Source: Podarcis liolepis
Lineage: Eukaryota
Assembly: GCA_965112155.1 (NCBI GenBank)
Contig: OZ218098.1
Reading direction: 5' to 3' (one strand)
DNA length: 64,000 bases
The position numbers were made by a program, and so were the translations under genes. The stretch's first letter is position 1. Each line of letters starts with the position of its first letter. Under the pieces are notes generated by a model that was not told the DNA's origin, made no database searches, and saw only the letters and a list, made by a program, of their open reading frames with translations. Of this stretch, positions 53,684 through 60,074 are shown in pieces.

Positions 53684-53914
53684 AATAAAAAAAATTCCTT
53701 CCAGTAGCACCTTAAAGACCAACTAAGTTAGTTCTTGGTATGAGCTTTCGTGTGCATGCACACTTCTTCAGATACACAAGTGTGTATCTTCAGATACACA
53801 AGTGTGCATGCACACGAAAGCTCATACCAAGAACTAACTTAGTTGGTCTTTAAGGTGCTACTGGAAGGAATTTTTTTATTTTGACTATGGCAGACCAACA
53901 CGGCTACCTACCTG
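53684..53914 (+). mobile_element. Penelope-like (PLE) pLTR-derived palindromic insertion, copy 1
   Basis: ~80-bp inverted arms, unpaired 3' tail ..gactatggcagaccaacacggctacc; 12-bp flanking duplication taactttttaat (53675-53686, 53915-53926). Confidence 0.85.
53738..53775 (-). ncRNA. Minimal type I hammerhead ribozyme motif (PLE type)
   Basis: GUAU-CUGAAGA-A-GUGUGCAUGCACAC-GAAA-GC-UC-AUAC: catalytic boxes, stem I GUAU/AUAC, stem II, minimal stem III. Confidence 0.75.
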
Positions 53915-54949
53915 TAACTTTTTAATGCGATCTTCCTATATGTCTGTAGCATGTTATTTAGCTTTCTTAAGAAGAACAATGCCTGAGCTCTTAAAAGCCA
54001 ATGATTCTCTGTGTAATTATAGATTTATCTCAGTGAAGTGTCCATCTATCATCTTCTGAAGCAGCTTCCGGTATGTATTTAGAATACGAGATTAGATTAT
54101 ATACAAATTTACCACTTGATCCAATTTGGTGATGTAACTTTTTTTTCTTATGTTATTATGTCTACTGAGGCAAAATGGATTTGGAAAGTTTTGGGCATCC
54201 TGCAATTATGTGATTTAGCCTGAAACTTGATTGCGTCTTCAACATTTGTCATTGATGTGCATTTTCGTTCGTTCATTTGTTTCAGTTGAAGGTCACTTTA
54301 TAAGAGCCATTTAAGTAACATTACTGCATTCTTCATATTATTATTAGTAGTAGCACATTACTTACTTTTTCATTAATAGTAATAGTAATAGTAATACTAA
54401 TAATAATAAATTTATCCCATGGCTGTGCAAGCAAAAGACATCTTGTACAATCAATCTGACACAAGAATTCTCTGCCCAATTTCAAGTGATTCCTTTGCTG
54501 TGCAGGTGCCCTGCTCTCTCTGAAGTGGCTTTTTAGGGGTACAGAGAACTGCCGAAGGAAAGGCAAATATAGCTACACGAAATACCTCCTGCTTGAGCAA
54601 CAGTGGCATATTAACCCATTATTACTATTTTGCTATTCTGTTCACAAATAAGGACAGGTAATGTAAGGGCTGCAATACATCACATATTTAAGAATGCTTG
54701 TTCTCCAACAATTTCAATGGAAATTAATCATAGTTAATAGTGAATTGAATTCAGCTAGGATGTCTTTTCCTTTTTATTTCTTTAGATTTTATTCTACATT
54801 GCCCAACCTAAGAGGCTTTGGCTAGGCTAAATACATTTAATACACTTAAAATAGCCAAATTCAAATTGATAAAAGCAGGTGAGAAGACTAATGTTGCTCT
54901 CCTCCCTCCTATCAACATGTGCTATTGCAATCAAATGCCTGTCATGGTA

Positions 54950-57532
54950 ATCAAATAGATTTTTATTGCATTAGCCGTGAGGCCATAGCATGATATACAT
55001 TGAAATAACAACATAAAATGGGGATGGGAAGATAAAGGTAGATATCGTCCTGGGCGATTACTTAAAGAAAGAAAAGAAAAGAAACTGCTGAGGCTGGAGG
55101 AGGGCCGTTAAAGGGTCCTTCAGCTCCTCAGATACGTCCTAACTCGATTGTCCTTGTACAATAAGGCTACTTGGAACTTCGTTCAGTTGTGCGGCGTATC
55201 GACTGCAGCTGTGGTGTTAAGGAAGAAGTTAGTGCCGCTTTCCTCTTCATCACACTAAGCAGGAAGTTAGCTGTCATCTCGGTAATCCAACAATCAGAAT
55301 CCTGCAAAAAGAGGGACACTATCCAAGGCTGGATTGGGAGATGAAGCTTATTCACGAGGGGAGTTAAAAACCGAGATCTTTCATCTGTCCAGTTGGGACA
55401 GAAGAGCATTACATGTTCCATAGTCTCCAGGGTCGTGTCATTACAGGTGCATGTTCTGTTTGCGATGGGAACTCTGGAATAACGACCCGACAGAACTGCT
55501 GTAGGAAAACAGTTGAGACGGGCACAGGTAAAGGCCCTACGCTTAGCCTCCGAAGAAATTGTGAAGCAGTATAGAGGGATCCCTTCAGGGGGTGGAATAG
55601 CTAGGGCTAGGCCTGAACACGGTCCTCTTGCATAGGAAGCTGTGTTAGAGAAGTCAAGTTGCTGTAGTTTCTTTTTGATTAGAGGTAGGGCCGCCGGGCT
55701 GATACACTCTAAGTTGAGAACAGTTTTACAATTCAAATTGAGAAGAGAGCGGAATTTGAGGTTAATTGTAGTTTTCCAAGGGGAATTATGAATGTCTCTT
55801 AGGATCAGATTGGAAAAACCGCCTCTAATTCGAGCATCCGATGCTAATAGGTGGAAGCTGTAGGAAATGGCTTGACTCCATGCTCGTTTGACAATTGAGG
55901 GCTGGGCAAACTCAAGTCGTAGGGCTGCACCTGAGACACATCTCGGGACGCCGGAAAGAGATCTCAGAAACATATGAAGTGGGCGATCCAAGTTACCTGA
56001 TATTGCTGTAGTCCATACTTCGCATCCATATAATAATTTAGGGACAACTTTGGCATTAAATATTTGAATTGCTGCTGGAAGATGTTTGCCGCCCTTCTGG
56101 TGATAAAATCGGACAATGGCGTTAGAAGTCATGGTTGCAGCGAGAAAGGCAGATTGTAGATGGGTGGTCCAGGAGAGATTACAAGTGAATATTATGCCTA
56201 GATATTTAAAGGCTTTTACCTTTTCTAAGTAGCCACCTGTGATCTTAAGCGGCTCCAACTTGAGTTTGCGGGAACGAGTGAAGTGGAGGACTTTCGATTT
56301 TTTATAATTAATGTTAAGAGCTTCCGTCTTACAATAGGCGATAAATGCATTAACTGCATTTGCTAGGTCCGCAACTGTTCTGGATAAGATGACGGCATCA
56401 TCAGCATAGAAAAGGGAAGCAACGGGGTGGCCTGCTAAGTGAGGAGGATACTTAGATGCTAGCTTCAAAGTGGAAATTGCATCGTGAAGATAGAGATTAA
56501 ACAATAAAGGGGCCAAGAGACAACCTTATCGGACGCCCTTGGCCGTTGGAAATGGAGTAGTGAGGGAGCCGTTGGGACCACTTCGGACACGGGCTGTGGT
56601 GTTTGAATAAAGGGAAATAATTAGGGAGAGGAGGTGCGGATCAATTCCCAAATGGGCAAGTTTGGACCATAATCTCTGCCTAGGAAGGGAATCAAAGGCG
56701 GCCTCCAGGTCCATGAAAGCGGCAAATAGGTGGCCTTGCCTTGGAGCAGTGTATTTACTGGCAAGGTGATAAAGAGTTAGACAGTGGTCCATGGTTGACG
56801 CTGACTTTCGGAAACCAATCTGTTCCAGCGGTAGAATGTTCCTCTCCTGGACCCATGAGAGAAGTTCCTCCAATAAAACAGCGGCAAATATTTTCCCCGG
56901 GATGGATAATAAACTGATGGGGCGATAGTTCCTAGGGATGTTTGGCTGGCCGCCTTTGAAGATCGGACCTATTATAGCTTCTCTCCAGGAGTCGGGGATG
57001 TCTAGGGCGGAGGAGATAGCGGAGAATACAGGAGTCAGGTGTTCGCTCCACCAAATAGGATCAGTCAGGAAAAGGTCCAACGGGACCATGTGTGGGCTGG
57101 GGGCCTTATTCCTTCGCATTGACATTATGATGTTGAAAATGCGAGTTGAGGTAAAGTTTATTGAGGAAGTGGGACTAAGAGAGCAGGAACAGAGGTCCGA
57201 CGGGGACTGAGGGAGATCTGTAAGAAGATTTGAAGAAGCGAAACTGGTTGAATAATAGGCAATCCATTCATCAGCGGAAATCTGGGTAGCTGGATTGAAT
57301 GGTGCCGAAGGTCTGACTAAGCACCAGAAGGAGCGGGAGTCATGCCTTTCTACAGCCGAACGAAGAGTGGACCAAGCCTCAAGGATGTGCTGCTGTTTCT
57401 TGCAATGAATCATGTTTCTGTATGTCCTTTTAATATCTATGAGCTTTGCACGTGTTTGGGGGTCGTTGGAAAATTTAATGATTCTGACCATTTTCCTAAT
57501 TCGCCTTCTTAGGGCTTTACATTCCTTGTCAA
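54950..57532 (-). mobile_element. Non-LTR retrotransposon, RTEX-like, 5'-truncated
   Basis: RT motifs NYRPISLL, EQIGFR, DLEAAFDS, GVR*GC, FYADD, FKYLG; C-terminal C-x-C..H..C knuckle (RTCTCNDTTLETMEHVMLFC); 3' UTR with stem-loop and AATAAA; clade assignment less certain than class. Confidence 0.85.
55167..57530 (-). pseudogene. LINE ORF2 (RT + Zn knuckle) with one in-frame nonsense codon; endonuclease domain missing
   Basis: ORFs 56526-57491 and 55167-56516 are in the same frame, separated by TAA at 56526-56528 within GVR(Q)GCLLAP. Confidence 0.9.
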
Positions 57533-57654
57533 TGTGCGGTTTCCATTTACTTTAATATAGCTCACATTAATATAGCTCACATTAAAAAGACTGCACTGGA
57601 AAAACCTGGGACTCTGAGCGTTTCTGCTAAAAGTGCCGCGAGGAATTCGCAACA

Positions 57655-58586: not shown

Positions 58587-59579
58587 TATTTATTTATTTG
58601 TTTTGCCTCAGAACTATTGTTTCAATGTGAAAGCTTTAAAGTAGGTTGCTGCACATGTTTGATTTGTTAGGTTTATTTTGTTGCAATGTCACCAGAAGAT
58701 CGGCAGGGAGGTTGTGCGGGAAGAAATCTAATGAGGAGCCAAGCAACACATTATATTTGCATGGAGTAATAAGATGAACAATTTTATTTTTTGTATGTTA
58801 TCTACTGCTTGCAATAACCCCACATACTTTACTGCCTTTGAATGACAGTCACGGTTTGTATTCTGAGTTCATCTTTTTAAGAAAAAAATCTCATAGGAAC
58901 AGCCACAAGTAAAACCTACAACATTTTGTTGTTGTTGTTCTGAGCAGGAAATCTAAATTTTGAGTTGACAGTTTTTAATCCGCTGCTCCTGCAGCACTGC
59001 ATTAATTTGAGCGGTAATCCTAGCTGGATGGGAGGAAAACTTAATCCTCTCTCATTTACACCATTCCCTATAACCATGACACTGGAATAAAGCTTTCTAA
59101 GCATGAAACACTTTCCTGACAAATGCTACACATGAAGGAGACACACACAATGGGCCGAATCCAACAAAATCATAACCAGAATAGAACCATTGGAATCAAT
59201 GGACTTCCTTTGAAAAGGTGTGCTCTGACTTTTAAAAAGGTGTGACTTAGTTTATTGCAGCTCATATATGCAATATTTATTTAATACATCAATTGGTTTG
59301 AGGTTAGAGATTTCTGAACCACCCTTCATTCAAAATGATAAATGGCTATGATGGTAACAAATATAACAAAAACAAATCCCATAATACATAAAGAGTAAAA
59401 GCTAAAAGACATAAGCTAAAAACCAAAACACAAATGAAGATAAATAAAAATGCCTGGGTGAACTAGAATTCCTTACCCACATGCAAAAGACCTCAATCCT
59501 GACACCAGTCAAACCTTTCTATGAAGAATAAAAAAATTCCTTCCTGTAGCACCTTAAAGACCAACTAAGTTAGTTCTTG

Positions 59580-59617
59580 GTATAAGCTTTCGTGTGCATG
59601 CACACTTCTTCAGATAC
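59580..59617 (-). ncRNA. Minimal type I hammerhead ribozyme motif (PLE type)
   Basis: Mirror image of 59624-59661. Confidence 0.72.
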
Positions 59618-59623
59618 ACCTGT

Positions 59624-59661
59624 GTATCTGAAGAAGTGTGCATGCACACGAAAGCTTATAC
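59624..59661 (+). ncRNA. Minimal type I hammerhead ribozyme motif (PLE type)
   Basis: GUAU-CUGAAGA-A-GUGUGCAUGCACAC-GAAA-GC-UU-AUAC. Confidence 0.72.
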
Positions 59662-60074
59662 CAAGAACTAACTTAGTTGGTCTTTAAGGTGCTACAGGAA
59701 GGAATTTTTTTATTTTGACTATGGCAGACCAACACGGCTACCCATCTGTAACTTTCTATGAAGGGCATTGCAAAGTCAATAAGCCACGAGAGCAAAAGCC
59801 TTTTCTGAGATGCAAGCAGCAGCAATTGACTGCAGACTTTTAAGGCTGTTTTCCAAATGCAAGTGAAGACATAGTGCAGATTGGCAAGAAAGTAGCTCAC
59901 TTAGGACTCAGCTATACAGAAGCAAAGAAAACGTTTTAAGTGTGTTTTAAAGTGCAATATACAAATCTGACACTAGATGGAGATTGTAAGCTATGACAAA
60001 TACAATATATTTTTAAAAAACTTTTTTTAAAGCATTTTCACAGTGTTTTTATATGTGTGTAGATTCCACCTTAG

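What the first reader, a model, noticed from the sequence alone, without database searches (positions are those of the whole stretch)
59515..59763. Perfect 93-bp palindrome with back-to-back hammerhead ribozymes on both strands
Seen: 93-bp arms, a 2-nt loop, a 37-nt unpaired tail and a 12-bp TSD. Each strand contains GUAU-CUGAAGA-A-GUGUGCAUGCACAC-GAAA-GCUU-AUAC. Established: Penelope-like elements carry minimal type I hammerheads in their pLTRs, often with an inverted pLTR piece, and minimal hammerheads are thought to cleave as dimers. Inference: a tiny non-coding ribozyme-bearing mobile unit. Read-through from either direction gives a long dsRNA hairpin that sequesters its own ribozyme and is a potential Dicer/ADAR substrate, while a transcript starting at the apex frees it. 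The DNA is cruciform-prone.
Basis: partly seen in the sequence, partly recalled or inferred. Interest (0 to 1): 0.72.

Follow-up and report, generated by a model that had tools for sequence, protein, structure and literature searches.

The report
Twin-primed stub of Penelope-like retrotransposon
This mirror-image insertion is a recent stub of a Penelope-like jumping gene, absent at this site in other sequenced samples and likely built on the spot from two short DNA copies of the start of the element's RNA rather than spreading as its own ribozyme unit; the shape is known, but the copies hint at how it forms.

Summary
Observation confirmed: perfect 93-bp arms, 2-nt loop, 37-nt tail, 12-bp TSD, a minimal hammerhead motif on each strand. 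The empty site, with one TSD copy, is present in 4 of 4 runs laid. The unit is the terminal 130 bp of a young autonomous Penelope-like element (3,019-bp period, 909-aa RT + GIY-YIG ORF, Neptune-type linker). The "tail" holds that ORF's first ATG. Inverted pLTR plus a one-sided tail is the published architecture of the class. It does not appear to spread as a unit: 43 short palindromes show 42 different apices, and none of the others matches this one. Arm 5' ends pile up at one base (19 of 71 arms), about 31-33 nt below a TATA box and next to an Inr-like motif, which this copy has lost. Both arms of an insertion share variants (H17 concordant in 69 of 70). Best model (inferred): two internally primed cDNAs run off the mRNA 5' end and are joined head-to-head. 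Ribozyme activity and transcription were not tested. The scan has noted this pattern before on other DNA (191 notes, at least 29 genomes).

The parts
59515..59526 (+). left target-site duplication (12 bp)
   Evidence: single copy at the empty site in 4 of 4 runs
59527..59619 (-). inverted, tail-less arm: positions -130 to -38 of the PLE terminus (tail end = -1)
59580..59617 (-). minimal type I hammerhead motif, minus strand
59620..59621 (.). 2-nt apex spacer, not templated by the element at this place; likely added at the cDNA ends (inferred)
59622..59714 (+). direct arm: positions -130 to -38; begins at the hot spot of 5' ends (predicted RNA start)
59624..59661 (+). minimal type I hammerhead motif: helix I 4 bp, core CUGAAGA, bulged A, palindromic helix II, GAAA, no stable helix III, U at position 17; predicted cut 59657/59658
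   Evidence: numbering from established hammerhead convention
59715..59751 (+). 37-nt one-sided tail; first ATG of the PLE ORF at 59721-59723 and its first 10 codons
59752..59763 (+). right target-site duplication; first 2 nt also match the element's continuation
53685..53917 (+). second, independent insertion of the same family: inverted arm to -130, composite spacer, tailed arm from about -117; both arms carry the C17 variant

Best explanation
This is a recent, extremely short insertion of the terminus of an endonuclease-bearing Penelope-like element of likely Neptune type, probably made at this site by two reverse-transcription events that ran off the start of the element's RNA and were then joined head to head. 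Shown: the sequence identity with the coding element, the TSD and empty site, the inverted arm with one-sided tail, the pile-up of arm ends at -130, and shared variants between arms. Inferred steps: (1) the pLTR promoter (TATA at -163, Inr-like motif at -131) starts the mRNA at about -130; (2) the RT/GIY-YIG protein nicks both target strands about 12-13 nt apart; (3) each 3' end primes cDNA internally near the RNA's 5' end, one at the tail end and one about 37 nt upstream, as shown in vitro for Anolis Poseidon; (4) both cDNAs run to the RNA's 5' end, giving 130- and 93-nt products, often with an added A; (5) end joining fuses them into a palindrome with a tail. The two hammerheads are passengers. 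The copy lacks the TATA box and the ORF sequence beyond the tail, so it is probably a dead end.
For: Identical terminus on an intact tandem element with a 909-aa ORF, Pfam RVT_1 and GIY-YIG. At least 40 identical copies of the 130-mer. In 40 copies chosen by the last 60 nt only, 31 have an inverted tail-less arm. 5' ends lie at -126..-135 in 18 of 40 tailed and 18 of 31 inverted arms, and at exactly -130 in 19 of 71. Of the 29 tailed arms that reach -126, 18 stop within 9 nt; of the 11 that pass -135, none stops before -171. Loose ends in 4 other runs pile at 59617-59624, 59717 and 59753. TATA at -163 and Inr consensus at -131. The tail-less arm reaches >5 nt further 5' than the tailed arm in 12 of 31 pairs, the reverse in 9, within 5 nt in 10 (hand count), which an intact fold-back of one arm cannot give. 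Across 79 head-to-head pairs: 146 shared against 58 unshared variants; 37 arm differences against a shuffled mean of 145, with 0 of 2000 shuffles as low. Both-strand nicking and extension and two RT start sites bounding the tail: PMC11167929.
Against: No RNA data: the transcription start is predicted from motifs and cDNA ends only. Ends peak at the G at -130, one base below the Inr-predicted A, and a splice-acceptor-like motif (pyrimidines + CAG) ends at the same place. Shared variants fit one RNA, one active source locus or later homogenisation of arms equally well. Asymmetric deletion across a fold-back apex could also give unequal arms. 9 of 40 copies had no inverted arm by script (2 of them show one by BLAST). 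11 of 40 tailed arms extend past the predicted start, so longer templates are also used. The in vitro evidence comes from a Poseidon element, a different clade. The sample is 40 of 443 candidates, identical to this copy and drawn from contigs C1-C6 only, and includes the window itself.
Confidence: 0.7

Rival explanations
1. Fold-back (self-priming): one cDNA runs to the RNA end, snaps back and copies itself, and the endonuclease resolves the intermediate to leave the tail. Unequal arms come from later deletion across the apex.
For: Arms share private variants. Self-priming was proposed for PLE inverted junctions in PMC3846280, and EN-mediated tail formation in PMC8557442. An ATT motif, preferred by the Anolis endonuclease, lies at the tail-less arm's end.
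Against: Many apices are blunt joins or carry foreign spacers without the pairing needed to snap back. The tail-less arm is the longer one in 12 of 31 pairs. Each arm stops at -130 independently, including in single-arm copies.
Confidence: 0.15
2. One reading: the palindrome is a non-autonomous, ribozyme-bearing unit that is transcribed and re-mobilised as a whole.
For: Dozens of short palindromes of near-identical size exist. Non-autonomous PLE derivatives are described (PMC8557442; bioRxiv 10.64898/2026.07.22.740005). One apex occurs twice (L067, L075).
Against: Only the window's own copy matches its 80-nt apex at 100%. There are 42 distinct apices in 43 short palindromes, although part of that set was selected for apex likeness; the one repeated apex sits in copies of different variant type and arm end. 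There is no TATA box in the unit. By analogy with Anolis Poseidon, the protein-binding region extends about 55-60 nt past the RT start and is missing here.
Confidence: 0.05
3. The -130 hot spot marks a processing or stalling point (3' splice site, or RT leaving the template at the base of hammerhead helix I) and not a transcription start. The twin-priming geometry would otherwise be the same.
For: A pyrimidine tract + CAG ends at -130. In D. virilis Penelope an intron ends at helix I (PMC4209133), and its promoter is TATA-less and internal (PMC2377424). The base before -130 is T in 17 of 19 unbiased arms.
Against: No common upstream exon beyond 1-2 nt among 70 arm ends at -130. Canonical TATA-Inr spacing. 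RT has already passed the whole hammerhead when it stops.
Confidence: 0.1

Closest known systems
Insertion units of EN+ Penelope-like elements: inverted 5'-truncated pLTR, 30-40-bp one-sided tail, TSD (Pen2a_Av, PMC3846280; Fig. 2 of PMC8557442)
   Same: Head-to-head inverted pLTR, tail on one side that carries the first codons of the ORF, short TSD, TATA/Inr-like motifs in the pLTR, hammerhead in the pLTR.
   Different: Here no ORF lies between the arms; both arms stop at one recurrent base. That hot spot was not mentioned in the passages I read.
Poseidon of Anolis carolinensis (PAc; PMC11167929)
   Same: Squamate-type host context (inferred), RT + C-terminal GIY-YIG, tail near the ORF start, hammerhead about 100 nt upstream of the tail end, uncleaved RNA as main template (65 of 71 arms span the cut site).
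   Different: This family has the CX4CxxC linker, which Penelope/Poseidon lacks. Its long ORF starts inside the tail; the ATG in helix II opens only 9 codons, whereas PAc's ORF starts at stem II.
Minimal hammerheads of metazoan PLEs (PMC4209133)
   Same: Short helix I, bulged base before a long helix II, G10.1-C11.1, palindromic 15.2-16.2, no helix III.
   Different: The youngest copies carry U at position 17 and other copies carry C; helix II is itself a 14-nt palindrome that is predicted to drive an alternative intermolecular duplex.
Non-LTR retrozymes (bioRxiv 10.64898/2026.07.22.740005; PMC7229834 seen in listing only)
   Same: Short non-coding PLE-derived sequence with type I hammerheads.
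   Different: Retrozymes are head-to-tail tandem repeats; this is a head-to-head pair with no sign of propagation as a unit.
L1 twin priming (recalled, no call)
   Same: Both target nicks prime cDNA; the products are joined into an inversion.
   Different: In L1 the two cDNAs copy different parts of the RNA; here they copy the same 93 nt.

Membership tests
EN+ Penelope-like element (parent family) | Single ORF with RT and C-terminal GIY-YIG endonuclease | tested here: met
   909-aa ORF in L031; RVT_1 E=3e-12 at 437-585, GIY-YIG E=3e-5 at 807-854, both above the curated cut-off
EN+ Penelope-like element (parent family) | Partial tandem forming pseudo-LTRs | tested here: met
   L031: truncated copy followed by full copy, period 3,019 bp
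EN+ Penelope-like element (parent family) | Inverted 5'-truncated copy and 30-40-bp one-sided tail | tested here: met
   31 of 40 copies; inverted arms begin at -27 to -47
EN+ Penelope-like element (parent family) | Short target-site duplication | tested here: met
   11-16 bp in 33 of 40 copies, 7-9 bp in 3, none found in 4; empty site for this copy
Neptune clade | CX2-5CxxC linker before the endonuclease plus CCHH motif in it | tested here: met
   C-x4-C-x2-C and C-x2-C...H...H read from the translation; definition in PMC8557442; the linker is shared with Nematis
Neptune clade | RT phylogeny with reference Neptune and Nematis sequences | not tested
   No clade-labelled references were at hand; closest named homologues are turtle ORFs at 61-69% identity
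Penelope/Poseidon clade | Absence of the CX2-5CxxC linker | tested here: not met
   Linker present
Minimal type I hammerhead | Core CUGANGA and GAAA, helices I and II, NUH site, minimal helix III | tested here: met
   Descriptor and fold; core unchanged in 139 descriptor hits, which is partly by construction; between 59622 and 59662 only H17 varies at 5% or more
Minimal type I hammerhead | Match to an Rfam hammerhead model | tested here: not met
   No hammerhead family at E<=5 or E<=10; Rfam models are not built for minimal motifs (my knowledge)
Minimal type I hammerhead | Self-cleavage as a dimer or with protein help | not testable with these tools
   Indirect: 65 of 71 arms span the cut site and none ends at it
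Non-LTR retrozyme | Head-to-tail tandem of hammerhead-bearing units | tested here: not met
   Two units in opposite orientation; definition
Non-autonomous element spreading as a unit (MITE- or SINE-like) | Many copies with identical internal junction and ends | tested here: not met
   42 distinct apices in 43 short palindromes; the window's apex is unique

The most novel reading that the evidence does not exclude
Short PLE palindromes are run-off ('strong-stop'-like) products. A dimeric RT-endonuclease primes twice on one capped, uncleaved mRNA near its 5' end, so the apex of each palindrome maps the element's transcription start in vivo. A promoter-started mRNA then yields mostly such stubs, and full-length copies need read-through or tandem transcripts. 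This would explain inverted pLTRs, tails and the need for tandems in one mechanism.
Probability: 0.4. Interest if true: 0.55.

Novelty: new member of a known kind. Interest (0 to 1): 0.28.

Why it matters
The single locus is an ordinary, probably inert stub. The family is useful because the origin of tandem and inverted PLE structures is described as unresolved (PMC8557442), and here a young family with many identical copies, empty sites and an intact ORF gives base-resolution predictions: RNA start at about -130, two priming sites 37 nt apart, both arms from one source, uncleaved template. These can be tested with the published in vitro assay. It also leaves many recent perfect palindromes (up to 1.7 kb per arm) in the host genome, as potential dsRNA sources and fragile sites.

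Tried and rejected
Rfam matches to miRNA and snoRNA families are all below gathering score and reflect a generic long hairpin; rejected. No Rfam hammerhead match. Assembly artefact: unlikely given the TSD, empty site, one-sided tail and 42 different apices, though the filled allele was not seen in raw reads. My first label 'Poseidon-type' was dropped after the linker motif check. In vivo hammerhead cleavage as the source of arm ends: none of 71 arms ends at the predicted 3' product start (-94); the nearest are -98, -96 and three at -89. A cap-derived G at the apex: G precedes -130 in 30 of 70 ends in the pooled set, but that set is biased by my apex query; in the unbiased set it is 1 of 19, so it is not supported. 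A shared upstream exon: not seen. Two searches for an independent sample of the C17 subfamily returned no candidates, so the hot spot has no unbiased replicate within this assembly. No RNA holder was listed for the locus, and no RNA reads were laid, so expression, start site and editing remain open. No host exon was recognised near the locus by eye in the ORF list; this was not scanned against a library. Four '-236' ends are artefacts of a 10-bp indel and were replaced by BLAST values.

Full report
OBSERVATION. The window holds a perfect inverted repeat of 93 nt (59527-59619 and 59622-59714) with a 2-nt spacer, followed by 37 unpaired nt (59715-59751) and flanked by a 12-bp direct repeat. The hammerhead string is on both strands. 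Its 28-nt core occurs 3 times in the window and in none of 100 shuffles. It folds with helices I and II and no stable helix III, which is the minimal hammerhead described for PLEs (PMC4209133; I read parts 1-2 of 4). Rfam's hammerhead models do not match it. In the contigs of all 4 runs laid (3 studies, 4 organism labels) the sequence passes from 59514 directly to 59752, so the site is empty there and the direct repeat is a real TSD. Whether one of these runs is the source of the assembly is unknown. The filled allele was not seen in independent reads.

WHAT IT BELONGS TO. The 130-nt arm plus tail has at least 40 identical copies in the 1.57-Gb genome (861 candidates, 40 scored). Ten of the 30 loci examined continue upstream into a pLTR and the end of an RT/GIY-YIG ORF. 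Locus L031 has a full tandem element with a period of 3,019 bp and an open frame of 909 aa from an ATG inside the tail, with Pfam RVT_1 and GIY-YIG. The ORF has a C-x4-C-x2-C linker and the CCHH motif. By the definitions in PMC8557442 (passages) that excludes Penelope/Poseidon and points to Neptune or Nematis; a preprint reports only Neptune and Poseidon in the vertebrates it sampled (passage). No tree was built. The closest named homologues are turtle ORFs at 61-69% identity. The host is probably a squamate, from my recall of flanking SINE-like sequence; this was not tested.

THE ARCHITECTURE IS THE FAMILY'S NORM. I took the 40 copies returned for the last 60 nt (40 scored of 443 candidates, all identical to the query, contigs C1-C6, window included). 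Positions count from the tail end (-1). The script found an inverted tail-less arm in 31 of 40, starting at -27 to -47, and TSDs of 11-16 bp in 33 of 40. Kilobase versions exist: arms of 1.6-1.7 kb in L031-L033. Inverted 5'-truncated pLTR, a 30-40-bp tail at one end and a short TSD are the published PLE pattern (PMC3846280 and PMC8557442, passages; PMC8969392, passages).

NOT A UNIT THAT SPREADS. An 80-nt query across the apex matched at 100% only the window's own copy among 40 scored. Of 77 distinct tailed copies, 43 are short palindromes, and they show 42 different combinations of arm ends and spacer. The one repeated apex is in copies that differ in variant type and arm end. Part of this set was selected for apex likeness, so the test leans toward finding repeats. 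Each palindrome therefore appears to be made anew.

WHY THEY LOOK ALIKE. 5' ends are not random. They fall at -126 to -135 in 18 of 40 tailed and 18 of 31 inverted arms, and at exactly -130 in 19 of 71. Of 29 tailed arms that reach -126, 18 stop within 9 nt; of 11 that pass -135, none stops before -171. Loose ends in the four other runs pile at the same places: 59617-59624, the tail start and the tail end. In the full element a TATA box starts at -163 and an Inr consensus has its A at -131. The window's two arms both end at -130. I infer that they are complete run-off cDNAs from an mRNA that starts there. The base before -130 is T in 10 of 10 tailed and 7 of 9 inverted arms of the unbiased set, which fits a non-templated A on the cDNA (inference). 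Against this: the peak is one base off the Inr prediction, a splice-acceptor-like motif ends at the same base, and the D. virilis promoter is internal and TATA-less (PMC2377424, passages). No shared upstream exon is seen among 70 ends. No RNA evidence was obtained.

HOW THE TWO ARMS ARISE. For Anolis Poseidon, purified protein nicks and extends both target strands, and starts reverse transcription at two internal sites that bound the tail. It uses mainly uncleaved RNA, and the hammerhead cuts only with protein (PMC11167929, parts 1-2 of 4; the two supplementary PDFs gave only figure lettering; the .gbk and .xlsx files were not read). That predicts one tailed and one tail-less cDNA on opposite strands. 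Here the tail-less arm is more than 5 nt longer at its 5' end in 12 of 31 pairs, shorter in 9 and about equal in 10 (hand count), so neither arm is a simple fold-back copy of the other unless the apex was later deleted. Arms of one insertion share their source: 146 shared against 58 unshared variants in 79 pairs, position 17 concordant in 69 of 70, and 37 differences against 145 expected from shuffled pairs (0 of 2000). This fits one RNA, one active locus or later homogenisation; I cannot separate these. Self-priming (PMC3846280) remains the main rival.

THE RIBOZYME. 65 of 71 arms span the predicted cut and none ends at it (hand count), so the templates of these insertions were mostly uncut. 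The youngest copies have U17 (76 descriptor hits), others C17 (63 hits). In the other runs C is the majority allele. Nothing shows that this locus is transcribed, and the predicted promoter is missing from both arms.

NOVELTY. The element class, motif and insertion shape are known. The pile-up of ends at a predicted start site and the same-source arms were not in the passages I read. My searches for it listed no paper on it, but the library lacks most subscription papers, including Arkhipova 2006 and Evgen'ev & Arkhipova 2005. The scan itself has noted this reading before: 191 notes in at least 29 genomes and 3 in this genome. These are unchecked notes and not independent support. My reading was written before I saw them. 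Verdict: real, ordinary in kind, modestly useful for mechanism.

Noticed in passing
window 53685-53917: Second insertion of the same family 5.6 kb away: complete hammerhead only on the tail-less arm, tailed arm truncated inside helix II, 22-nt composite spacer, both arms sharing the C17 and -56 variants.
   Followed up: yes
L031 (G000:C8:51195500-51205000), L032, L033: Kilobase palindromes of the same family: arms of 1.6-1.7 kb, 0-3 differences; L031 also has a tandem with an open 909-aa frame.
   Followed up: partly
window 59657 and family-wide: Two variants at the hammerhead cleavage base: U in the youngest identical copies, C in others and in most contigs of related runs. U17 is generally the weaker cleavage base (my knowledge).
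   Followed up: partly
L099, L101, L102, L013, L014, L054, L095: Recurrent spacers that repeat part of the hammerhead, consistent with the cDNA end re-annealing through a 4-nt repeat shared by the arm start and helix II.
   Followed up: partly
L001 apex: The spacer between the arms is a 39-nt copy of flanking host sequence from about 250 bp upstream, a templated repair scar.
   Followed up: no
window 55167-57551 (minus strand): LINE-type RT reading frame of about 790 aa interrupted by one stop codon; unrelated to the PLE; not scanned against a library.
   Followed up: no
window about 59880-60070: Another high-copy repeat fragment 120-300 bp downstream of the finding (high summed contig depth).
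   Followed up: no
L035; L032: One family copy sits inside a gypsy-like pol frame (L035); another lies next to a frame resembling a class C GPCR or vomeronasal type 2 receptor exon (L032). Both labels are by eye and recall.
   Followed up: no
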